Shown here: positions 39,501-64,000 of the stretch, in pieces
Numbering within the stretch: position 1 is the stretch's first letter
Layout: each line of letters begins with the position of its first letter
Origin: the human T2T-CHM13v2.0 reference genome, Homo sapiens
Assembly (NCBI RefSeq): GCF_009914755.1
Contig: NC_060925.1
DNA: 64,000 bases
Strand: one strand, 5' to 3'
Notes under the pieces: model-generated
Told to the model about the DNA's origin: nothing
Seen by the model: the letters and a program-made list of their open reading frames with translations, nothing else
Database searches by the model: none
Made by a program: the position numbers and the translations under genes

Positions 39501-39891
39501 TGATAAGGTTTGGATCTGTCCTCACCCAAATCTCATGCCAAATTGGTAATCCCCGGTGTTGGAGGTGGGGCCTGGTGGGAGGTGATTGAATCATGGGGGT
39601 GTATTTCCCCTTTGGTGCTGTTCTTGTGATACTGAGTGAGTTATCACAAGATCTGGTTGTTTAAAAGTGCGTACCACCTCTGCACACAACCTTCCTCCTG
39701 CTCCAGCCATGTAAGACATGCCTGCTTCCCCTCCACCTTCTGCCATGACTGTAAGTTGTAAGTTTCCTGAGGCCTCCTCAGCCATGTTTCCTATACAACC
39801 TGTGGAACCATGAGCCAATTAAACCTCTTTGCTTTATAAATTACCCAGTCTCAAGTATTTCTTTACAGCAGCACGAGAACAAACTAATACA
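39501..39891 (+). mobile_element. MSTA/MSTB-like solo MaLR LTR
   Basis: tgataaggtttggatctg..aaattacccagtctc..actaataca; 5-bp TSD gtgac/atgac. Confidence 0.9.
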
Positions 39892-40262
39892 ATGACAGAT
39901 AATCTTTTTTTTTCATAACATAAAGTCACATTAATATATCTAGTATTCTATGCTTCTACACTATAGAAATACCAAGGAGTTCAAGCCATTTGAACTCTGA
40001 GCCTCACTGAGGCAATTAGTGTGGATTTCACTTAAAAAATCCTTTGAGATCCTCTAGGCTATGACTTTATAATATATGTGAACTAAACCATAAATAATAT
40101 GCTTGAATTAAAAAATCGCCACCTTTCTAAACAGAAAAAATTAAGGGCTCCATAATGTAATAAATTCCACTAGACTTTCATTTATAAATAAAGAGAAATG
40201 ATATACTTTAATTTTATCAGGACTTTATTAAATTTCCTTGGTTCTTGTTAAATACTATCAAT

Positions 40263-48540: not shown

Positions 48541-50244
48541 ATTATATCTTACACTGCTTTCTTTTTATTAATTCTAGTGCTGTAGTAATATTTTTATGTA
48601 ATAGCTTTTTTATTAGAAGAACTTCATTGGCTGATCTAAGATCCTTATTTAAGATCCTGAGCTTATTTAAGAAATCTGGAAATAAGGAAGAACTACAATC
48701 AATAGAGAAAACATTCATCCCTGTTTTTTACCTCAATTAATATTAATGTTGGTAGCACTGTGCTTCACATTCATTATTTCACTTTAATTACCCCAATTCT
48801 ATGAATAGGTACTATTAATTTCTCATTTTTCACATAAGGAAAATAAAGCAGAGAGATTAATAAAATGACCAAGGTCACACAGCTAAGTGATGAACCTAGG
48901 CATTCAAACCCAGGTGTGATTGACTCTAGAAACTGATATTGAGCTGCTCACTCTGTACTGGCCTGAGGACACAGTAATAAAAATGACAGAAAGGGACTCT
49001 GTACTAAGGGAGATTACAGAACGGCTTTCCTGAGATGCAGTACAGGGTAGTGGCTTTAAGAACAGGCTCTGGAGTTAGACTAGTAGGGCTGGTTTCCCAG
49101 CTCTAGCTCTGCCACTATTGTTTATGACTTTTTGGGCCTATCTTCAATCTCTATGCCTCAATCTCCTTAACCACAAAACAGGGACAAAAGGACCTAACGA
49201 ATGGGCTTATTGGAATGATAAAATGATGTAATATATGTGAAGTACTAGTAAGCATTCAGTGCATGTTTTCTTTTTCAGCGTGCTTATACTACTTTCATCT
49301 AATGGGTTTTAAATAATGTGGCAGGACTACTGATTGAGGTTCCTTCCTGTCCTAAATTCTATCCTTCATATTGGTAAATATAGCCAATAACTTACTAAGT
49401 AGCAGAATCCATGTAAGATCGCCATACCAGGAAGATCTGAATTCTAGCTCTGCCACTTGCTGTTGATGTGACTCTAGAGGGCATTTAACGTCTGTGAGCC
49501 TCAGTGTGCACCTGATAAAGTAGGGCTAATAATACATGCTCGTCTGAAGGGCATTCCTAAGAGGAAAATGCTTGTTATTCTGCAGATCACAACACACTTT
49601 AAAAAACAGCATCCTCCTGGGAAACCCCTTAAGGCAAGCATGTATTAGTAACCTTTACCAATGTGGAAACAGGCTCACAGAAGGTAGGGGACTCACCTAA
49701 CGTCACATAACCAGCACCACAGTATCCTATAGAACCGAAGACCCAACTGCACAAAACGCGTTAGGAGTGCTGTACGTGCAATTCAGGGACCACCAGCAGT
49801 GGTTACTGATGGGTACTCAGAAATACCGTTTTGAAACAGGCAGCTGTTATCCTAGTGCTATTCGGCCGATACATCCTGCGTTAAATTCTATGGGTTCAAT
49901 AAACAAAATTGCCACATTCGGGCTTGCCCCCCACCTAACCCTACAAAGCTTTGGACCTCATTCCCAATTGTTCCCTAATTCTGAGGCGGGTAGAAAATCA
50001 GGCGAGGTGAGCGGCCAAATCGGAATATTCTAAGACGCCCCCACGGGACGCCGGCCACACCAGGCACAGGAGTCGCTCCTCATAGCGAGTCTGGTGCGGC
50101 CTACGCGCGGCGCTTCCTTTCGGACCTGAGGCCCAGACCCTCAAAATAGAGGGAGCGGTGAGTCTGGCAAGGGTTGCATACCCGCTACTTCTCCTCGCCA
50201 GCCTTTTCACTGAACCTAGGGATCCTGGGACTCATCCCTCCGAC

Positions 50245-50286
50245 CGAGGTAAAACTGCGAACGGTCGAGGTAAAACTGCGAACAGT
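50245..50286. repeat. 21-bp tandem duplication
   Basis: cgaggtaaaactgcgaac(g/a)gt x2 (50245-50265, 50266-50286). Confidence 0.95.
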
Positions 50287-50337
50287 GGTGACTGCCGTCA
50301 GCCCGCTGACCGGTCCCGTCTATCCGAGCTGTCTTAC

Positions 50338-50385
50338 CAGCTTGGTGGCCCGATAAGGCCCGGGAGGCACACCCTGACTCTCCAT
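50338..50385 (-). CDS. DEPDC1: DEPDC1 exon 1 coding part (48 nt)
   Basis: MESQGVPPGPYRATKL, ATG at 50385, donor gtaaga; all 12 exons sum to 2436 nt with no frameshift. Confidence 0.96.
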
Positions 50386-50392
50386 AGGTCTG

Positions 50393-50413
50393 TCAGCGCC
50401 CGGTGGCGTCCAT
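50393..50413 (-). promoter_or_regulatory. Upstream ORF (MDATGR*) in DEPDC1 5'UTR
   Basis: cgccgccATGG context, 6 codons + TGA, ends 7 nt before the main ATG. Confidence 0.75.
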
Positions 50414-52442
50414 GGCGGCGAAGGCGACACTCAGGCCCAGCGGCCGCGGCAGTGGCGAGTCTCGGCACAACCGTTGGCCCCGCCGCCGATTTGAATAGCA
50501 TAGAGGGCTGCGCGGATTGGCCGCGCCGCGGGTCACGTGACGCCACAGCCAGGCTCGGGAAGGAGTCGGCGAGGGCCGCTCGGCTGCGTCCTGGGGCTCC
50601 AGTAGCTGGCGCGGGCTGGGGTGGGCTGGGCTGGCCTGGGACCGCCTCGATGGGACAGGCTCGGGTTTCCCTGGCGCTGTTTCTCCCTCCTGCGGTCTAC
50701 GGCGAGGCGGAGTCACAGAGTCCTGTTTTCGTGCTCAGAGGGGATGAGCTCTTTAGTTCCAAACGAAATTATTTGGAGTCCAGCCTTTGGTTTAAGGGAA
50801 TTTGAAATTTGAAAAGACAAGAAAATACGGTTTTTCTGCCTGGCCCTACAGGATCTTCAGCAGTTAGCTTAGAAGGCAAAGCAACCTGATGGATATGTGT
50901 CGCAGTTTCTCTCTCTGCTGCCTATCCTCTCTCTCAGCAGGTGCCATGATTCTCTGAAGTGCTAAAATCTAGGTTCAGAACCCCCTAATTGTGCAGTAAA
51001 ATGGATCATTCAGAACCCCCCAGTTGGGTAATAAAATGGATTATAGGTAGTCTTTCTTAAGTACATACAATGTGGGGCTTGGGAAAGGTTGTGTACAACT
51101 TGTCAAATTGCTTCCCTTAAACTCTACCACTGTATAAGAATGTTGGTTATGTTTGGATCGTGATTATACACTTAAAATTTCACTAGGATCTTAGAAAATA
51201 AATCTTCAACAGAAGTCAATTTTCAAATGACAAAAACTACATTCCGAGAGTTGAAGAGACTTACTCAGTCTTAGGTCTCCTTGGCAAAGCACAGACTTCA
51301 TGCTTTTAATAAATACCCTGTCACCAGTCTGAAACTATCTGATGCTAAGAATCCCTTAGTAAAGTGGGAGATTGCTTGAGTGATTTGAAGCTGTGGAAGA
51401 ATTCACTTGGAAATTAAATAGCAGTTTAAGAGGATAGGATGCAGTAAAAAGAAGAGATAAAGAAAAATGTTCAGGGAGTGGTAGTGTAGGTCTGTGGAGT
51501 TTTCCTTAATTTGGGCAGAAGCACATCTATTTTCTACCAGGACCAGTGGGTAGGAATTTTCAAAAACATACTTGGTAAACAGGAACAATCTACTCAATTT
51601 TCCACTTATGTTAAGGAAAAGTAAAATGATTGATGTTACAAAATAATGTTAACTGTTTCTTACCTGGCTTTATGATACATTGTCCCAGGATTTTCGTTTT
51701 TCTTTTCTTTTTCCTTTCAGAAGGAAATGGAGATGAGACTGTGGAAGCCAAAATTTATTTTTGCCCAGCTCCCCAAGTTGAAAATCATCTCACATACAGC
51801 CTTTGATATAGGTAGCCACAGCTTAATAGTACCTTAATAATCCACTGTGGCTGTGGATTCACTCTGCACCATCCACTTTCACATTTATAGTGTCTTTAGA
51901 TGATAAAATATTTAAAAGTTAGGTTTTTGTTAAATGTGAGTGGTCTGAGTTTCTTTAAGGTAACTTTACATACCTTTGCTCTTAACAATTATTCATTGAT
52001 TGCATAGTTTAAATCTTGGAAGTCATTTTATTTCCTCTCATTACCAATTCTGCGAGAGTCACTTTATCATCCTTTTCCTAATTCTCCTACATTAGAATTT
52101 CTCAGAGTGGGTTAAAAACTACATGTTTTAGAATTTCCTGCAATACCTGTTAAAATGCTGATTCCTGGGATTCCCCAAATCCTGATTGGGGTGTATGTAT
52201 ATATGTGTATGTATGTGTGTGTGTGTGTGTTTGTCATGGGAGGGAGAGTACAGGGTAAATGTGTAGGGTTGGAGGAGGCTGTATCTCTGAAGACTGTGCA
52301 GCTGAGATGCTGTAATGCCCATGAACTGCCTAGCTGTGGACTTATATATGAAAGAAATATGAGCCTCTGTTAATTTACTCTTCTAGCTGAACCTAACCTA
52401 ATCTACTCATTGTGATACAATGAGTATCACAAAAGAAAATGA

Positions 52443-52526
52443 GCTCTCTTCTTTTGTCTGCCACCATGTGAGATGTGCCTTTCACCTTCTGCCATGATCG
52501 TGAGGCGTCCCAAGCCACACAGAACT
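52443..52526 (+). mobile_element. THE1-type MaLR LTR internal fragment inside the L1 TSD
   Basis: gctctctt..ccaccatgtgagatgtgcctttcaccttctgccatgatcgtgaggcgtcccaagccacacagaact matches the THE1 LTR transcribed portion; LTR termini absent. Confidence 0.8.
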
Positions 52527-52542
52527 TAATTCAGGTAGCTGG

Positions 52543-55500
52543 AGAGATAATGGTGGATGGGAGGCAGGACTAGATTGCAGCTCCCACTTGGATGGAAAGA
52601 GCAGAATGTGGAGGCTTGCACTGTGAACTTTTGCTCCAGAATGACTGCAGGAATAAATCAGGAAAGCTGAGAGAATTGATAGACCATCTGAAGGAAGTGG
52701 ATTGCTCCTGCAGGACCCGGAAGACACCCCAAATACTGTGCTGGCTGGTATCCATGACTGAGAGACCCACAGACAGTTCACATCACACGACTCTGTGCAG
52801 ACAACCCCCAGTACCAGCCCAGAGCCTGGTAGACTTGCTGGGTGGCTAGATCCAGAGGAGATAACAATCACTACATCTTGGCTCTCAGGAAGCCACATCC
52901 CTAGGAAAAGGGGGAAACCACTACATCAAGGGAACACTCCATGGGACAAAAGAATCTGAACCACAGCCTTGAGCCCTAGGCCTTTCCTATGACAGAGCCT
53001 ACCCAAATGAGAAGGAATCAGAAAACCAACTCTGGTAATATGACAAAGTTCTTTAACACCCCCCAAAAATCACACTAGCTCACCAGCAATGGATCCAAAA
53101 CAAGAAGAAATCCCTGATTAACCTAAAAAAGAGTTCAGAAGTTTCATTATTAAGTTAATCAGGGCGATCCAGAGAAAGGCAAAGCACAATTTAAGGAAAT
53201 CCAAAAAATGATACAAGAAATGAGGGGAGAAATTTCCAATGAGATAGATAGCATAATTAAAAAACAATAAAAACTTCAGGAAACCATGGACGCACTTATA
53301 GAAATGCAAAATGCTCTGGAAAGTCTCAGCAATAGAATTGAACAAGCAGATGAAAGAACTTCAGAGCTCAAAGACAAGGTTTTTGAATTAACCCAATCCG
53401 ACTAAGACAAAAAAAAAAAAAAAGAATAAGAAAGTATGAACAAAGCCTCCAAGAAGTCTGGGATTATGTTAAATAACCAAATCTAAGTATAATTGGCATT
53501 TTTGAGGAAGAAGAGAAATCTAAAAGTTTGGAAAACATATTTGGGGGGATAATCGAGGGAAACTTCCCTGGCCTTGCTAGAGACCTAGACATCCAAATAC
53601 AGGAAACTCACAGAACACCTGGGAAATTCATCACAAAAAGATCATCACCTAGTCACATTATCGTCAGATTATCTAAAGTTAAGATGAAAGAAAGAATCTT
53701 AAGAGCTGTGAGACAAAAGACCAGGTAACCTGTAAAGAAAAACCTATTGGATTAACAGCAGATTTCTCAGCAGAAACCCTGTAAGCTAGAAGGGATTGGG
53801 GCCCTATATTCGGCCTCCTCAAACGATTGGGGTCCTATATTCAGCCTCCTCAAACAAAACAATTATCAGCCAAGAATTTTGTATCCAGTGAAACTAAGCT
53901 TCATAAATGAAGGAAAGATATAGTCTTTTTCAGACAATCAAATGCTGAGAGAATTTGTCACTACCAAGCCAGCACTATAAGAACTGCTAAAAAGACCTCT
54001 AAACCTTGAAACAAATCCTGGAAACACATCAAAACAGAACCTGTTTAAAGCATAAATTTCACAGGACCTATAAAACAAAAATACAATTGAAAAAAAACCC
54101 AGAAAACTAAGGTATACAGGCAACGAATAGCATGATAAATGGAATGGAACCTCACATCTCAATACTAATGTCGAATGTAAATGGCCTAAATGCTCCACTG
54201 AAAAAATACGGAATTGCAGAATGGATAAGAATTCACCAACGAACTACTTGCTGCCTTCAAGAGACTAACCTAACACATAAGGACTCACATAAACTTAAGG
54301 TAAAGGGGTGGAAAAAGTCATTCCATGCAAATGGACACAAAACATGAGCAGGAGTAGCTATTCTTATATCAGTCAAAATAAACTTTAAAGCAACAGCAGT
54401 TAAAAAAGATGAAGAGGGACATTATATAATGATAAAAGGCCTTGTCCAACAAGAAAATATCAGAATCCTAAGTATATATGCACCTAACACTGAAGCCCCC
54501 AAATTTATAAAACAATTACTGCTAGACCTAAGAAATGAGATAGAAAGCAACACAATAATAGTGGGGGACTTCAATACTCCTCTGACAGCACTAGACAGGT
54601 TATCAAGACAGAAAGTCAACAAAGAAACAATGGATTTAAACTATACCCTGGGACAAATGGACTTAACAAAAGGCATTCTACCCAACAACCGCAGAATATA
54701 CATTCTATTCATCAGCGTATGGAACTTTCTCCAAGATAGACCATATGATAGGCTACAAAATAAGCCTCAATAAATTTAAGAAAATTAAAATTATATAAAG
54801 CACTCTCTCAGACCACAGTGGAATAAAACTGGAAATCAACTCCAAAAGGAACCTTCAAAACCATGTAAATACATGGAAATTAAATAAACTGCTCCTGCAT
54901 CCTTTATTGGGTCAACAATGAAATCAAGATGAAAATTAAAAATTTCTTTGAACTGAACAATAATAGTGACACAACCTGTCAAAACCTCTGAGATACAGAA
55001 AAGGCAGTGCTAAGAGGAAAATTTATCTTCCTAAACACCTACATTAAAAAGTCTGAAAGAGCACAAACAGACAATCTAAGGTCACACCTCAAGGAACTAC
55101 GGAAATAAGAACAAACCAAACCCAAACCCAGCAGAGAAAGGAAATAAGCAAGATCAGATCAGAACTAAATGAAATTGAAACAAAAAAAGAAGATAAATGA
55201 AATAAAAGCTAATTCTTTGAAAAGATAAATACAGTTGATAGACCATTAGCAAGATTAACCAAGAAAAGAAGAGAGAAAATTCAAATAAGCTCAAATAGAG
55301 GAGATGGATAAATTCCTGGAATGATACAATCCTCCTAGCTTAAATCAGGAAGAATTAGATACCCTGAACAGACCAGTAATAAGCAGTGAGATTGAAATGG
55401 TAATTAAAAAATTACCAACAAAAAAACTCCAGGACCAGATGGATTCACAGCAGAATTCTACCAGACATTCAAAGAAGAATTGGTACCAATCCCATTGACA

Positions 55501-58063
55501 GTATTCCACAAGATAGAGGAAGAGGGAATCATCCCAAATTCTATGAAGCCAGTATCACCCTAATACCAAAACCAGGAAATGACATAACCAAAAAGAAAAC
55601 TACAGACCAGTATCCCTGACGAACATAGATGCAAAAATCCTTAACAAAATGCTAGCTAACCAAATCCAATGGCATATCAAAAGATGATTTTCCATGATCA
55701 AGTGGGTTTCATGCCAGGGATACAGGGATGTTTTAACATACACAAGTCAATAAATGTGATATACCACATAAACAGAATTAAAAACAAAAATCACATGATC
55801 ATCTCAATGGATGCAGAAAAAGCATTTGACAAAATCCAGCATTGCTTTACGATTAAACTGTCAGCAAAATTGGCATACAAGGGACATACCTCAATATAAT
55901 AAAAGTCGTCTATGACAAACCCATAGCCAACATAATACTGAATGGGGAAAAGTTGAAAGCATTCCCTCTGAGAACTGGAACAAGACAAGGATGCCCACTC
56001 TCACCACTTCTCTTCAACATAGTACTGGAAGTCCTAGCCAGAGCAATCAGACAAGAGAAAGAAATAAAGGACATCCAAATCAGCAAAGAGGAAGTCAAAC
56101 TGCCACTTTTTGCTGATGATATGATTGTTTACCTAGAAAATCCTCAAGACTCTTCCAGAAAGCTCCTAGAACTGATAAAATAATTCAGCAAAGTTTCTGG
56201 ATACAAAATTAATGTTCACGGATCAGTAGCTCTTCTATACACCAACAGTGACCAAGCTGAAAATCAAATGAAGAGCTCAACCCCTTTTACAGTAGCTGCA
56301 CAAAATAAAAACAAATAATAACAACAAAAAACTTAGAAATATATCTCACCAAGGAGAAGAAAGATCTCTACAAGGAAAACTACAAAACATGGCTGAAAGA
56401 AACCATGGATGACACAAACAAATGGAAACACATCCCATGCTCATGGATAGGTAGAATCAATATTGTAAAAATGACCATACTGCCAAAAGCAATCTACAAA
56501 TTCAATGAAATTCCCATAAAAATACCACCATTGTTCTTCACAGAACTAGAAAAAAGAATCCTAACATTCATATGGAACCAAAGAACATTCCACATAGCCA
56601 AAGCAAAAAGAATAAATCTGAAGGCATCACATTACCTGATTTCAAACTATACTGTAGAGCCATGGTCACCAAAACAGCATGGTACTGGTGTATAAATAGT
56701 CACAGAGACCAATGGAGCAGAATAGAGAATGCAGAAATAAGCCCAAATACTTACAGCCAACTGATTTTTGACAAAGCAAAGAAAAACATAAAGTAGGGAA
56801 AGAACACCCTATTCAACAAATGGTGCTGGGATAATTGGCAAGCCACATGTAGGAGAATGAAACTGAATCCTCATCTCTCACCTTATACAAAAATCAACTC
56901 AAGATGGATCAACGACTTAAATCTAAGACCTGAAACTATAAATATTTTAAAAGATAACATTGGAAAACCTTTCTATACATTAGCTTAGGCAAGGATTTCA
57001 TGACCAAGAACCCAAAAGCAAATTCAATAAAAACAAAGATAAATAGCTGGCATTTAATTAAACTAAAGAGCTTTTGCACAGCAAAAGGAACAGTCAGCAG
57101 AGTAAATAGACAACCCACAGAGTAGGAGAAAATCTTCACAATTTATACATGTGACAAAGGACTAATATCCAGAATCTACAATGAACTCAAACAAATTGGC
57201 AAGGAAAAATAAACAATCTCATCGAAAAATGGGCTAAGGACATGAATAATCAATTCTCAAAACAAGATATACAAATGGCCAACAAACATGAAAAAATGCT
57301 CGACATCACTAATGATCAGAGAAATGCAAATCAAAACCAGAATGTGATACTACCTTACTCCTGCAAGAATGGCCATAATAAAAAAATAAAAAAAAATAGA
57401 TGTTGGTGTGGATGCAAAGAATAGGGAACACTTCTACACTGCTGGTGGGAAGGTAAACTAGTACAATCACTATGGAAAACAGTGTGGAGATTCCCTAAAG
57501 AACTAAAATTAGAACTACCATTTGATTTTGTAATCCCACTATTGAATATCTACTCAGAGGAAAAGAAGTCATTATATGAAAAAGATACTTGCACACACAT
57601 GTTTATAGCAGCACAACTTGAAACTGCAAAAATGTGGAACCAACCTAAATGCCCATCAATCAACAAGTAGGTAAAGAAATTTTGGCATACATATATGATG
57701 GAATACTACTCAGCCATAAAAAGGAATGAATCAATGGCATTTGCAACGACCTGGATGAAATTGGAGACTTAATTCTAAGTGAGGTAACTCAGGAATGGAA
57801 AACCAAACATTGTATATTCTCATTCATAAGTGGGAGCTAAGCTATGAGGATGCAAATGCATAAAAATGACACAATGGACTTTGGAGACTCAGGGGAAAGG
57901 GTGGGAAGGGAGTGAGGAGTAAAAGACAACAAATAGGATGCAGTGCACACTGCTCAGGTGATGAGTGCACCAAAATCTCACAAATCACCACTAAAGAACT
58001 TACTCATATACAAACACCACCTGTTCTCCAATAACCTATGGAAATAAAAAAATTTTAAAAAAA
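52543..58063 (+). mobile_element. Near-full-length decayed L1 (L1PB1-like)
   Basis: 5'UTR start gataatggtggatgggaggcaggactagattgcagc; ORF1 remnants (~53030-54050); ORF2 EN (VNGLN, GDFNTPL) and RT (QGCPLSP, FADDM) motifs with stops/frameshifts; L1PB-type 3'UTR and A tail; 12-bp TSD aaaagaaaatga at 52431-52442 and 58060-58071. Confidence 0.93.
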
Positions 58064-58550
58064 GAAAATGAATTGCATGTACCCTGTATTATATATAGTG
58101 AGACAAATTTTTTCCGCCTAGACAGAAATTATCTATTCTAGTAGGCTTTCCTCATTCTGCCCATGGAATTCATATATTCCCACTAGAAAATAAGTTCCAT
58201 GGCCAAGACTTTATCCAGTTTGATTAGTGCTCTATCTCCAGCCCCTAAACAGCACATAGTAGGAATTTAATAAATATTTGGTGAAAGGATGAATTTTTTC
58301 TTATCACAAAAAGGAAAGTTTATATATAGGGAATATAATTGTCTTTCCTTTCTAGGTAACCTTTAATAAAATATTCCTGAAAGTCTGTAAAATTTATTTA
58401 TCCTTGAAGTTAGCCATTGCACCATGCTATGTCTAGTTATGAGTCTTATTTCGTGAATTTTGTCTAATATTTGGTCTGGTCTGAAATTTCTTTTAATTTT
58501 TTTCTTTTAAATTGCTCCTGGCTGTTGTCCTGCCTGCTTCTGAAACTATT

Positions 58551-58865
<315 letters not shown>

Positions 58866-59504
58866 TGAAACTATTATTAATTATTTGATCTTCTGGATCT
58901 ATCTTATTTTTCTGATGTCTTTCCTTCTATAATTTTCCTTTTATTATTTTTTTCTTCAAATTCTGAGAGAATTCTTCCAGCTGAGCTTCTATTTAATTTT
59001 CTTTTATGCTCAGTTTTTCATTCATCTCCAGGAAGACTTTTCTATTCTCTCATTATTATTTATTTCTGTATTGCCTGCTCTTGATTTAGGCTTGGAGATA
59101 TGAATTATGAATAAGACTTTAATTATTTTTCCCTTTTGTCTTAAACTAGCTCACAGTAAAATGCTCAGAATGACCCTCTTCTTTGAACTGCTGATTATTT
59201 TATTGTTTGCATTGCTTTTAATTTAAATTTATGTTTTCTTATACAAGGCTTTTTTTAAAAATTTAACATCAGTAACTGAAATAAGCCTCAGTGAAGATCA
59301 GTTATGTCCATGTAAGTATTTTTCAGATAATGACTTTTTATTTTTCAACCGTCATTCCCCAAATCCTGCATCCTCAAGTATTCAGACAGCTGGTGTAGTT
59401 TAGGATTAGAAGTACAGTTGACATGTATTGTCTTGTCTGGCAATCAGCTCTCATTTCCTTTGGGAAAAGTATACCTCCTCATTTGGGAAAATACTTCTCT
59501 AGCA

Positions 59505-59808
59505 TTTTTTTTTTTTTTTTGAGACAGAGTCTTGCTCTGTCATTCAGGCTATAGTGCAGTGGTACGATCTTGGCTCACTACAACCTCCACCTCCCAGGTT
59601 CAAGTGATTCTCCTGTCTCAGCCTCCTGAGTAGCTGGGACTACAGGTGTGTGGCACCATGCCTGGCTAATTTTTGTATTTTTAGTAGAGACGGGGTTCAC
59701 TACTAAAAATTTGGCCAGGCTGGTCTCAAACTCCTGACCTCAAGTGATCCTTCCACCTATGGCCTCCCAAAGTGCTGGGATTACAGGTGTGAGCCACTGC
59801 GTCTGGCC
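59505..59808 (-). mobile_element. Alu (AluSx-like)
   Basis: Antisense Alu with polyT. Confidence 0.92.
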
Positions 59809-60408
59809 CTTTCTAGCTCTAAAATGTATTCTGAGAGAACTTTTCTTTCTTGTCTCAGGGATCTAGGAGTGAACACTTGCTCCAACTGAGTCACAGTTCT
59901 GCTCACCCAATTCCAATGAGGCGGTCACATGACCCAAGCTGAGTCAGTAAGATTTTTAAAAACTGGATTAAGAGGGAAAAGCCTTCTCTTTCTGGTGACT
60001 AAGATGAGAGGCTATGAACCAGGAGCCAGTGTGGTTATAGTTACACCTGAATGGAGACTCTCTAGTCAGGTGAAATGCACTGATGACCAAAGAGAAGCAG
60101 AAAGGAGAGCTAGAGAGTGCTAATTTTAGTCTTTCTGCGGTTCACTTAGACTCCTGAAATTTTATTAAGTGGGACAATAACAATTTTTTATTAAACAAGT
60201 CAGTTTGTTTAGATTTCTTTCATCTACCCTCCAAAGGTCTCCAGTAAAAGACACGTTTTCAAGAATGCTAATGACAATGACTTTTCTCAAGGGCACAGAT
60301 GCCATTGAGCTCCTAGGTAAGGTTCTATATCATTCCAGTACGTTACAACACTCTACATAGACGTCAGAGCAACTATATAATTGTATTTGAGAGATTTTTC
60401 AGGATTGC

Positions 60409-60837
60409 TGATATAGTTTGGATATTTGCCCTTTCCCAAATCTCATGTTTAATTGTAATTCCTAACGCTGGAGGTGGGTCCTGGTGGGTTGTGTTTGGAT
60501 CATGGGAGCAGATTCCTCATGAATGGCTTAGGCCATCCTCTTTGGTAATAAGTGACCTCTCTCTCTGAGTTCACAGGAGATATCGTCATTTAAAAGTGTA
60601 TGGAATTGCCCACTCTCTCTCTCACTTGCTCCTGCTCTGGACATATGACATGCCTGCTCCCCCTTAGCCTTCTACCATGCTTGTAAACTTCCTGAGGCCT
60701 CATCAGAAGCCAAGCAGATGCCCAGTTCCATGTTTCCTATAATGCCTGCAAAATCATGAGCCAATTTAAACTCTTTTCTTTATAAATTACCCAGTCTCAG
60801 GTATTTCTTTATAGTAATGCAAGAATGGCCTAATATA
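60409..60837 (+). mobile_element. MSTB-like solo MaLR LTR
   Basis: tgatatagtttggat..aaattacccagtctcagg..ggcctaatata; perfect 5-bp TSD attgc. Confidence 0.9.
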
Positions 60838-61153
60838 ATTGCTCACAATAAAGTGCTCTCTTCCTGAGAAATGTAGATGTTTGACAGCTAAGTGATCTTG
60901 AGACCTTTGAGTGTTTGTGAGGAGTTTTACCTTCAGAGACCACTGATATCCCACCTAGTACAAAGTAGATGGAAGTCCCTAAATTCTCCAAAGATTCTGG
61001 TAAAGACTGTAGTATGAAATGGACCATCCACATCTACTGAGAAAAACTGGGAGGACAGTGACAGGTACTTGTAGTCATGTTGCCATATCCCATATAATTC
61101 TGTGCTGTATTTGTATGTAATAGGATGATTTACAGGAAAAAAAATCATTTGGG

Positions 61154-64000
<2,847 letters not shown>

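What the first reader, a model, noticed from the sequence alone, without database searches (positions are those of the whole stretch)
52431..58071. L1PB insertion whose TSD encloses a THE1 LTR 'exon': apparent LTR-promoted, spliced 5' transduction
Seen: the 12-bp direct repeat aaaagaaaatga flanks the whole block (52431-52442 and 58060-58071). The left copy is not adjacent to the L1 5' end; between them lie ~84 bp of THE1/MaLR LTR (52443-52526) and a ~16-19-nt linker. The piece has no TG..CA termini and no 5-bp TSD of its own, unlike the intact MST LTRs at 39501 and 60409. Established: THE1/MaLR LTRs start transcription near the ctctct tract after their TATA and carry a splice donor at (G)GAACT|GT(A/G)AGT; the fragment starts at gctctc and stops exactly at agaact. 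Inference: a source L1 was transcribed from an upstream THE1 promoter, spliced from the LTR donor to an acceptor just 5' of the L1, and the chimeric mRNA was retrotransposed in full. If other copies share this cap it would define an LTR-driven L1 source lineage.
Basis: partly seen in the sequence, partly recalled or inferred. Interest (0 to 1): 0.8.

Follow-up and report, generated by a model that had tools for sequence, protein, structure and literature searches.

The report
THE1 LTR exon fused to LINE-1
An old LINE-1 copy was pasted into this spot together with an 84-base leader copied from a THE1 LTR, running from where the LTR should start transcription to its splice donor; this kind of chimera was recently catalogued for gene exons.

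Summary
The 12-mer aaaagaaaatga occurs only at 52431-52442 and 58060-58071 in the window (0.01 expected). It encloses an 84-nt THE1 LTR piece (52443-52526) plus a decayed L1PB1-like LINE-1 (52529-58059).

The piece starts about 26 nt after the LTR's TATA-like box. It ends on the last exon base before the LTR's GT[AG]AGT donor.

Three points are new:
- The "linker" is mostly the L1's own 5' terminus (ATTCAGG). Only 2 nt (ta) plus a private ~10-nt insert are unexplained.
- A second copy on chrX has the same layout inside its own TSD. It carries a different THE1 subtype and belongs to a different L1 sublineage, so it is an independent event.
- The window's L1 also lacks a ~950-bp GT..AG-bounded 5'UTR intron, like a SpIRE.

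No other copy shares either cap, so there is no capped lineage and the cap is not part of the family consensus.

Best reading: one retrotransposition of a chimeric RNA made of a THE1 first exon and a full-length L1. Whether the join was cis-splicing upstream of a source L1 or a join in trans is open. The kind is already described for gene exons (Law & Burns, Cell Genomics 2026). This locus is a new, LTR-derived member of moderate interest.

The parts
52431..52442 (+). Left target-site duplication, aaaagaaaatga. It is preceded by ..tatcac, so the bottom-strand nick site reads 5'-CTTTT/G.
   Evidence: only 2 copies in the window, 0.01 expected.
52443..52526 (+). 84-nt THE1 LTR piece, equal to the LTR's presumed first exon (from about the TSS to the last base before the GT[AG]AGT donor).
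   Evidence: 91.4% mean identity with no gaps to 11 THE1 LTRs. It starts at gcacaa|GCTCTC and ends at gaact|GT.
52527..52528 (+). 2-nt junction 'ta', assigned to neither THE1 nor L1. The chrX copy has 'tt' here.
52529..52535 (+). The L1's own 5' terminus, attcagg.
   Evidence: 10 other family copies begin exactly at ATTC[AT]GG beside unrelated flanks.
52536..52545 (+). Roughly 10-nt insert (tagctggaga) private to this copy, between ATTCAGG and GAT(C)ATGG.
   Evidence: absent from the other 5' ends.
52529..58059 (+). L1PB1-like LINE-1. It is full length except for the removed 5'UTR intron. Its ORFs are decayed; the longest + strand ORF is 114 aa.
52731..52744 (+). Exon-exon junction in the L1 5'UTR (aaatact|gtgctgg, between 52737 and 52738). 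Siblings carry about 950 bp here.
   Evidence: the missing segment starts with GTGAG in 10 of 15 siblings and ends with AG in 15 of 15; 111 spliced-type against 697 intron-type junctions in the genome.
58040..58059 (+). 3' end of the L1 and its A-rich tail (ggaaataaaaaaattttaaa).
58060..58071 (+). Right target-site duplication, aaaagaaaatga.

Best explanation
One target-primed reverse transcription event inserted a chimeric RNA. Its 5' leader is the first exon of a THE1 LTR: transcription begins about 26 nt after the LTR's TATA-like box, and the exon is cut at the LTR's own splice donor. The leader is joined, through 2 unassigned nt, to the very 5' terminus of a full-length L1PB1-like RNA. That RNA had also lost a GT..AG intron from its 5'UTR.

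Most likely route (inferred): a source L1 lay downstream of a THE1 LTR in the same orientation. Transcription started in the LTR. The LTR donor was spliced to a cryptic acceptor in the flank immediately upstream of the source L1. The L1-encoded proteins then copied this RNA into the present site. This would parallel the RAP1GDS1-L1PA2 case.

Shown: co-insertion within one TSD; the exon-like boundaries; recurrence in an independent chrX copy; a splice-like deletion in the 5'UTR.

Inferred: promoter use; cis-splicing; position of the acceptor.

My confidence that the two parts arrived together as one retrocopy is about 0.85. The figure given for this explanation is for the whole cis-splice scenario.
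For: - The TSD encloses both parts.
- The THE1 piece ends at the base before GT[AG]AGT in 10 of 11 type-1 LTRs. It starts at the same LTR nucleotide (within 1) as the chrX cap.
- The chrX copy (G000:C23:84179758-84192564, minus strand) has its own TSD, ATAAATGCAGTGGTA / ATAAATAAAGTGGTA. That is 13 of 15 matching, with an exact AGTGGTA core. The TSD encloses a 93-nt cap, then tt, then ATTCTGG...
- The caps come from different THE1 subtypes. The window cap is 91.4% identical to type 1 and 79.4% to type 2. The chrX cap is 89.1% to type 2 and 77.1% to type 1. The two caps are 74% identical to each other.
- The two L1 bodies lie in different sublineages. The AU test rejects them as a clade, p = 0.0038.
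- The L1 5'UTR deletion has GT..AG edges.
- Papers, passages read: MaLR LTRs supply promoter, TSS and splice donor but no acceptor, and act as complete first exons (PMC5538554). [quoted passage not shown]
- Law & Burns, sections and Table S5 read: 17 exon-L1 5' chimeras, 6 of them ending at donors. They include a SpIRE source driven by a host promoter through a cryptic acceptor 15 bp upstream of the L1.
- The TPK1 row of Table S5 ends in a THE1-like string stopping at ..GGAACT with an annotated GU donor (compared by eye).
Against: - No source locus was found. None of the ATTCWGG-starting copies or the 76 intron-less 5' ends has AG followed by T[AT] before the L1.
- Two independent events both join 2 nt before the L1 terminus (ta and tt). 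That is a coincidence under splicing into arbitrary flanks.
- The family has an internal acceptor near position 89, used in the CREM chimera of Table S5. Neither capped copy used it.
- The TSS is inferred from the TATA distance and the shared start, not measured.
- The empty site in other primates was not examined.
- If the source already lacked the intron, the 5'UTR deletion says nothing about splicing of this particular RNA.
Confidence: 0.5

Rival explanations
1. The end product is the same, but the join was made in trans. A THE1-initiated 5' exon, cut at its donor, was attached to the 5' terminus of an independently transcribed L1 RNA. The route could be trans-splicing, RNA ligation, or the L1 reverse transcriptase jumping from the end of the L1 RNA onto a free 5'-exon splicing intermediate. 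The 2 extra nt would then be untemplated.
For: - Two independent events, with different THE1 subtypes and different L1 sublineages, join at the same place: donor, then 2 nt, then the most upstream known L1 base.
- No source locus was found.
- Law & Burns report that no L1 acceptor exists when the L1 part starts within its first 10 bp. They also report that 15 of 17 parent genes hold no intronic L1, and they raise trans-splicing, ligation and template switching.
- Several Table S5 rows list short '3' untemplated' stretches at the junction.
Against: - An L1 RNA that starts at its own TSS has no upstream AG to act as an acceptor, so classical trans-splicing does not fit.
- Ordinary family copies often carry extra Gs before ATTC. 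The capped ones carry T[AT] instead.
- No direct evidence exists for 5'-exon intermediates as templates.
- The one case with a known source (RAP1GDS1) is cis.
Confidence: 0.3
2. Two unrelated events. A pre-existing fragment of a THE1 LTR happened to lie where the L1 later landed, and the 12-bp repeat is chance.
For: The repeat is A-rich and lies next to an A-rich tail. No empty site was checked.
Against: - The 12-mer has 2 hits in the window against 0.01 expected.
- There is no alternative TSD next to the L1's own 5' end.
- The fragment would have to be trimmed exactly at the TSS-like and donor positions.
- The same trimming recurs in the chrX copy inside a different TSD.
Confidence: 0.04
3. 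The THE1 piece is a heritable part of an L1PB subfamily's 5'UTR, that is, a capped source lineage.
For: Two capped copies exist. L1 5'UTRs are known to be replaced over time (recalled, not read here).
Against: - Four pattern scans with different anchors found only the window and chrX copies.
- A 78-nt junction query found only itself.
- 17 of 17, 10 of 10 and 76 of 76 other 5' ends lack the cap.
- The two caps derive from different THE1 subtypes, and the L1s do not form a clade.
- Caveat: the scans need exact anchor matches, so decayed copies could be missed.
Confidence: 0.03

Closest known systems
Exon-LINE-1 5' chimeras (5' transductions with mRNA or lncRNA first exons), Law & Burns, bioRxiv 2025 / Cell Genomics 2026 (PMC13174262)
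   Same: - Sense-oriented non-L1 leader inside the TSD.
- The leader begins at a transcript start and ends at a splice donor.
- The L1 is near full length and joined within its first bases.
- Short unassigned nucleotides sit at the junction.
- Several of their L1s also carry an intra-5'UTR splice.
   Different: - Their class was defined on unique, non-repetitive exons.
- Here the whole leader is a THE1 LTR exon.
- Neither this locus nor the chrX one is among the 17 rows of Table S5 (all 3 parts read).
- 'THE1' occurs 0 times in the main text and in the 6 readable supplements. mmc7 could not be read.
RAP1GDS1-L1PA2 chimeras: a SpIRE source rescued by a host promoter (same paper, section read)
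   Same: - An L1 with a spliced-out 5'UTR segment.
- Upstream promoter exon(s) spliced to a cryptic acceptor a few bp before the L1.
- More than one offspring insertion.
   Different: - There the source locus and supporting RNA reads are known, the linker is 15 bp, and the offspring share one leader.
- Here no source is known, the linker is 2 nt, and the two copies carry different leaders.
- The chrX copy keeps its intron.
SpIREs (spliced integrated retrotransposed elements), Larson et al. 2018, PMC5860796
   Same: An interstitial 5'UTR deletion with GT..AG edges in an otherwise TPRT-typical L1, with the same junction recurring in many copies.
   Different: - Their probes came from L1.3. They found SpIRE97/622 only in L1PA1-PA6 and none in L1PB (passage read).
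- The L1PB1-type junction here is a different intron.
- It makes up 111 of 808 junction hits, against about 1.8% in their count.
LTR-initiated, LTR-spliced host transcripts (THE1B-CSF1R; MaLR first exons in oocytes)
   Same: The LTR supplies promoter, TSS and donor, giving a short first exon (PMC5134097; PMC5538554).
   Different: Those are RNAs of host genes. Here the exon is preserved as DNA because it was retrotransposed attached to an L1.
U6/L1 and other small-RNA/L1 chimeras
   Same: A sense-oriented foreign RNA at the 5' side within one TSD.
   Different: In those the L1 part is usually 5'-truncated and the partner is a complete small RNA. Here the L1 is full length and the partner is an exon cut at a donor.

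Membership tests
Canonical L1 TPRT insertion | Target-site duplication flanking the whole insert | tested here: met
   A 12-bp exact repeat; 2 hits in the window against 0.01 expected.
Canonical L1 TPRT insertion | 3' A-rich tail directly before the 3' TSD | tested here: met
   ..aataaaaaaattttaaa at 58043-58059.
Canonical L1 TPRT insertion | Endonuclease-type nick site (TTTT/A-like) | tested here: inconclusive
   The bottom strand reads CTTTT/G at the start of the TSD. It is close to the consensus but not identical. The consensus itself is recalled.
Exon-L1 5' chimera / 5' transduction (Law & Burns class) | Sense non-L1 sequence between the 5' TSD and the L1 5' end | tested here: met
   52443-52528.
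Exon-L1 5' chimera / 5' transduction (Law & Burns class) | The non-L1 part ends at a splice donor of its parent | tested here: met
   It ends at gaact|. GT[AG]AGT follows in 10 of 11 type-1 LTRs and in 7 of 11 type-2 LTRs, i.e. 7 of 10 distinct loci. The same donor is annotated in the TPK1 row (by eye).
Exon-L1 5' chimera / 5' transduction (Law & Burns class) | The non-L1 part begins at the parent transcript's start | tested here: inconclusive
   It begins about 26 nt after a TATA-like box, and both caps start at the same LTR base within 1. No TSS data were consulted.
Exon-L1 5' chimera / 5' transduction (Law & Burns class) | Both parts arrive at the same time in a multi-species alignment | not testable with these tools
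   Only the window's own genome is held (header).
Exon-L1 5' chimera / 5' transduction (Law & Burns class) | Identified source locus (needed for classical cis 5' transduction) | tested here: not met
   No copy has AG followed by T[AT] before ATTCWGG among the 27 pattern hits or the 76 intron-less 5' ends. The search was limited to exact anchors.
SpIRE-like spliced L1 | Interstitial deletion whose edges in intact relatives are GT..AG | tested here: met
   GTGAG is at the left edge in 10 of 15 siblings and AG at the right edge in 15 of 15.
SpIRE-like spliced L1 | The same junction in independent insertions | tested here: met
   111 genomic hits to the junction 23-mer with up to 3 mismatches, against 3 in the control. 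The window's own junction is not among them because of a 4-nt repeat (ctgg).
SpIRE-like spliced L1 | The deletion arose by splicing of this insertion's RNA rather than being inherited from an intron-less source | tested here: inconclusive
   The intron-less state needs at least 14 changes on an 85-row tree, against a mean of 20.5 for shuffled labels (0 of 300 shuffles reached 14 or fewer). It is clustered but not monophyletic. The tree uses about 190 columns and is weakly resolved.
Integrated THE1 (MaLR) LTR | Complete LTR with its own termini and its own short TSD | tested here: not met
   Only 84 nt of an LTR of roughly 350 nt are present. About 260 nt upstream and 90 nt downstream of the aligned LTRs are absent. 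It is a retro-copied piece, not an integrated LTR.
Integrated THE1 (MaLR) LTR | Sequence homology to THE1 LTRs | tested here: met
   Mean 91.4% to 11 LTRs. Subfamily names (THE1A-D) were not assigned by any tool.

The most novel reading that the evidence does not exclude
The donor-cut first exons of LTR (and gene) transcripts may be attached to the exact 5' terminus of L1 RNA by a recurrent mechanism that needs no particular source locus. Two options fit. One is a reverse-transcriptase jump or ligation onto free 5'-exon splicing intermediates. The other is a cryptic acceptor built systematically by the L1 target site (T-rich nick site plus an A-rich TSD containing AG), so that any full-length L1 downstream of an active LTR can be mobilised with an LTR leader. 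Germline-active MaLR LTRs would then have been a regular outside driver of L1 mobilisation, including promoter-crippled spliced copies.
Probability: 0.25. Interest if true: 0.7.

Novelty: new member of a known kind. Interest (0 to 1): 0.45.

Why it matters
The locus is a fossil record of an RNA in which one retroelement's promoter exon was fused to another retroelement, and the fusion was copied into the germline.

Two independent THE1-L1PB cases with identical junction geometry add LTR-derived leaders to the recently described exon-L1 chimeras. Their geometry is donor, then 2 nt, then the first L1 base. That bears directly on the open question of how such chimeras are joined: cis-splicing into the source's flank, or a join in trans.

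It also shows that L1PB-type elements had their own 5'UTR intron and spliced copies. This was outside the reach of the L1.3-based SpIRE survey.

There is no sign of a function at the DEPDC1 / DEPDC1-AS1 locus. The L1 is decayed and lies in intron 1 of DEPDC1-AS1.

Tried and rejected
1. Sibling copies with the same cap.
- A 78-nt junction query found only itself.
- Pattern ATGATYGTGAGG..GGTGGAYRGGAGG found only the window. Its gap range of 40-70 excluded the chrX copy, whose gap is 38.
- GTGAGG..CAGRACTAGATTGCAG gave 3 hits: the window, chrX and one unrelated chr13 site.
- CCATGAT..GGCAGRACTAGA gave 5 hits: the window, chrX and 3 unrelated sites.
- All these scans need exact anchors, so 2 is a lower bound.

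2. Source locus. ATTCWGG..GGYRGAYRGGAGG gave 27 hits against 5 in the control. None has AG followed by T[AT] before ATTC. Of the 100 junction hits listed, the 78 with 2 or fewer mismatches were fetched. 76 of them gave an L1 hit and none shows such a flank or a cap.

3. 'Same source, alternative THE1 promoters.' Dropped, because the two L1 bodies are not sisters.

4. 'The linker is the start of the THE1 intron.' The two copies' linkers match each other in 7 of 9 positions, but each matches the LTR's gtaagtcc only with a gap. The stretch is explained better as the L1's own terminus.

5. THE1 caps on L1PA 5' ends: 0 hits with one strict pattern.

6. Last scan. It gave 11 hits against 0 in the control, and none looks like a capped L1. 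Nine share one repeat-like string that, from recall, resembles the antisense strand of another MaLR LTR.

7. The paper search for L1PB, THE1 and transduction gave nothing relevant.


Full report
**Observation**

The repeat aaaagaaaatga stands at 52431-52442 and 58060-58071.
- These are its only two matches in the 64-kb window on either strand. 100 dinucleotide shuffles gave a mean of 0.01, and none had two.
- The right copy follows the A-rich end of a LINE-1.
- The left copy is followed at once by gctctcttc...cacagaact (52443-52526).

**The 84-nt piece is THE1 LTR**

A genome search with 52443-52640 returned THE1-type LTRs covering query 1-84 at 90-93%, and L1 5' ends covering roughly query 95-198. 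It scored 40 of 3019 candidates.
- Aligned to 11 such LTRs with their flanks, the piece matches without gaps at a mean of 91.4%.
- It corresponds to the stretch from ..gcacaa|GCTCTC.. to ..ggaact|.
- In the LTRs a TTTTAWAAA-like box lies about 26 nt before the first base of the piece.
- GT[AG]AGT follows its last base in 10 of 11 LTRs.
- The roughly 260 nt of LTR upstream and 90 nt downstream are absent from the window.
- So the piece has the boundaries of an LTR first exon. The donor end is read directly from the alignments. The start is an inference from the TATA distance.

Passages read in papers agree with this.
- MaLR LTRs carry promoter, TSS and a splice donor near their 3' end but no acceptor, and they serve as complete first exons (PMC5538554).
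- A THE1B LTR starts and splices the CSF1R transcript (PMC5134097).
- One row of Law & Burns' Table S5 (TPK1) ends in a THE1-like string stopping at ..GGAACT with an annotated GU donor (compared by eye).

**The 'linker' is mostly L1**

The family's 22-mer GGCAGGACTAGATTGCAGCTCC has 787 genomic hits with up to 2 mismatches, against 0 in the control.
- Seventeen sampled siblings have mutually unrelated sequence upstream of ..GATCATGG... The THE1 piece is therefore not part of the family's 5' end.
- A pattern scan found 27 sites, against 5 in the control. Among them, 10 further copies of this family begin exactly at ATTC[AT]GG next to unrelated flanks, often after 1-5 extra Gs.
- In a wider table of 52 distinct 5' ends, remnants of ATT..GG precede GATCAT in a minority. 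The rest start a few bases further in.
- Hence the L1 begins at 52529. Only 'ta' (52527-52528) is unassigned, and tagctggaga (52536-52545) is private to this copy.

**A second, independent capped copy**

One search also hit chrX (G000:C23, minus strand) across the junction.
- There..ataaatgcagtggta | g tctttctctc...catgaaact | tt | ATTCTGGATCAT.. opens an L1 of the same family.
- That L1 is interrupted by a younger L1PA with its own 17-bp TSD.
- It resumes and ends in an A-rich tail followed by ataaataaagtggta.
- The TSD is therefore 13 of 15 matching, with an exact agtggta core, and it again encloses cap plus L1.
- All 40 scored hits to this cap start at query 91-98, so LTR homology again begins at the ..aag|ct(t)tctc.. 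position.
- Its relatives are a second THE1 subtype with extra bases in the middle.
- Reciprocal identities separate the caps. The window cap is 91.4% to type 1 and 79.4% to type 2. The chrX cap is 89.1% to type 2 and 77.1% to type 1. The caps are 74% identical to each other, with 3 gaps. Each LTR set was chosen as the best hits to its own cap.

The L1 bodies are not close either.
- They are 82.6% identical, near the bottom of the window's range of 82.3-88.8%.
- On a 28-row tree the window sits in a starred 10-row clade and the chrX copy in the other half.
- The AU test rejects the pair as a clade (lnL difference 38, p = 0.0038). I had named this grouping before seeing the tree.
- These are two separate events with the same geometry: TSD, exon from start to donor, 2 nt, first base of the L1.

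**No capped lineage**

- A 78-nt junction query found only itself.
- Three further anchor pairs found only the window and chrX copies, plus 1 and 3 unrelated sites.
- None of 78 fetched intron-less copies has any similarity to either cap.
- The scans need exact anchors, so decayed copies could be missed.

**The L1 itself looks spliced**

Relative to most siblings the window lacks about 950 bp between 52737 and 52738.
- In 15 siblings the extra segment begins right after ..aaatact with GTGAG in 10 of 15. It ends with AG before g[tc]..ctgg in 15 of 15.
- Genome-wide, the exon-exon 23-mer has 111 hits (control 3) and the exon-intron 23-mer has 697 (control 2), both with up to 3 mismatches.
- The window's own junction is not counted, because of a 4-nt repeat.
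- On an 85-row tree built from about 190 columns, the intron-less state needs at least 14 changes. Shuffled labels gave a mean of 20.5, and 0 of 300 reached 14 or fewer.
- So the state is clustered but not one clade. I cannot tell repeated splicing from an intron-less sublineage.
- The with-intron rows were picked as best matches to the window, which biases this comparison.
- The chrX copy keeps the intron.

**Comparison with what is known**

Law & Burns (preprint sections 24 and 25 read; passages of the Cell Genomics version; all three parts of Table S5) describe 17 L1 insertions whose 5' side carries first exons of genes or lncRNAs in sense.
- Six end precisely at donors.
- Most have near full-length L1.
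- Some are joined within the first 10 bp of the L1, where no acceptor exists.
- Several have short unmapped junction bases.
- One source is known: a SpIRE L1PA2 in RAP1GDS1, spliced from the gene's exon 2 to a cryptic acceptor 15 bp upstream of the L1.

The present locus has that architecture with an LTR exon as leader.
- 'THE1' and 'MaLR' occur 0 times in the preprint's main text, and 'THE1' occurs 0 times in the 6 readable supplements. mmc7 could not be read.
- Neither locus is among the 17 rows.
- Larson et al. found SpIRE97/622 only in L1PA1-PA6 and none in L1PB, using an L1.3-derived probe. The L1PB-type spliced copies seen here were outside that survey.

**Mechanism**

Shown: co-insertion, exon-like boundaries, recurrence.

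Inferred: initiation in the LTR, and how the exon was joined.

Cis-splicing into the flank of a source L1 is the only route with a documented precedent, and I rank it first at about 0.5. Three things count against it:
- no source was found;
- the internal acceptor near L1PB1 position 89, used in the CREM chimera, was ignored in both copies;
- two independent events both stop 2 nt before the L1 terminus.

A join in trans (ligation, or a template jump onto a donor-cut 5' exon) would explain the constant geometry, and I give it about 0.3. A speculative middle way is that the T-rich nick site plus the A-rich start of the TSD of a source L1 builds a cryptic acceptor a few bases before the element. 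This is my own inference and is untested.

**Verdict**

The linker, the acceptor and the lineage parts are not. This is a new, LTR-derived member of a kind described in 2025-2026.

Noticed in passing
window 52731-52744; genome-wide: L1PB1-type elements have a roughly 950-bp GT..AG-bounded 5'UTR segment that is missing from 111 of 808 junction hits, an L1PB counterpart of SpIREs. The published SpIRE survey used an L1.3 probe and reported none in L1PB.
   Followed up: partly
G000:C23:84179758-84192564 (loci L032, L049): The second capped L1 is split by a full-length L1PA with its own 17-bp TSD (aaaaaaaatacaaaggt). It landed directly beside an older 5'-truncated L1 whose own TSD (cagtggta) overlaps the new one.
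   Followed up: yes
Law & Burns Table S5, TPK1 row (hg38 chrX:81175826-81181203): The last exon of that published gene-L1PA chimera reads like a THE1 LTR segment and stops at the same ..GGAACT donor. The paper does not name it as THE1. Compared by eye only.
   Followed up: no
window 53794-53855: A tandem duplication of 31 nt (94% identical) inside the L1, in the ORF1 region.
   Followed up: no
window 39501-39913: A MaLR-type LTR, 64-66% identical to the THE1 LTR examples. The one at 60409 gave no hit to my two THE1 queries.
   Followed up: partly
window 52200-52232: A (TG)n / (TA)n microsatellite about 200 bp upstream of the insertion.
   Followed up: no
one search hits (e.g. G000:C9:129315698, C11:44344843): Nine sites share AGCCA..GGAAACTT..AATCATGG[CT][AG]GA. 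This is probably another repeat family (antisense MaLR, from recall) that shares an 11-nt word with the L1PB1 5' end. They could not be fetched.
   Followed up: no
loci L041 (C23:2208286) and L048 (C24:2272090): The flanks are identical. This is the same THE1 LTR in the X/Y pseudoautosomal region, so the 11 type-2 LTRs are 10 distinct loci.
   Followed up: no
window 50062-64000: The insertion lies in intron 1 of DEPDC1-AS1, in the same orientation, about 2.3 kb downstream of its first exon (hub annotation). No sign of exonisation was looked for.
   Followed up: no
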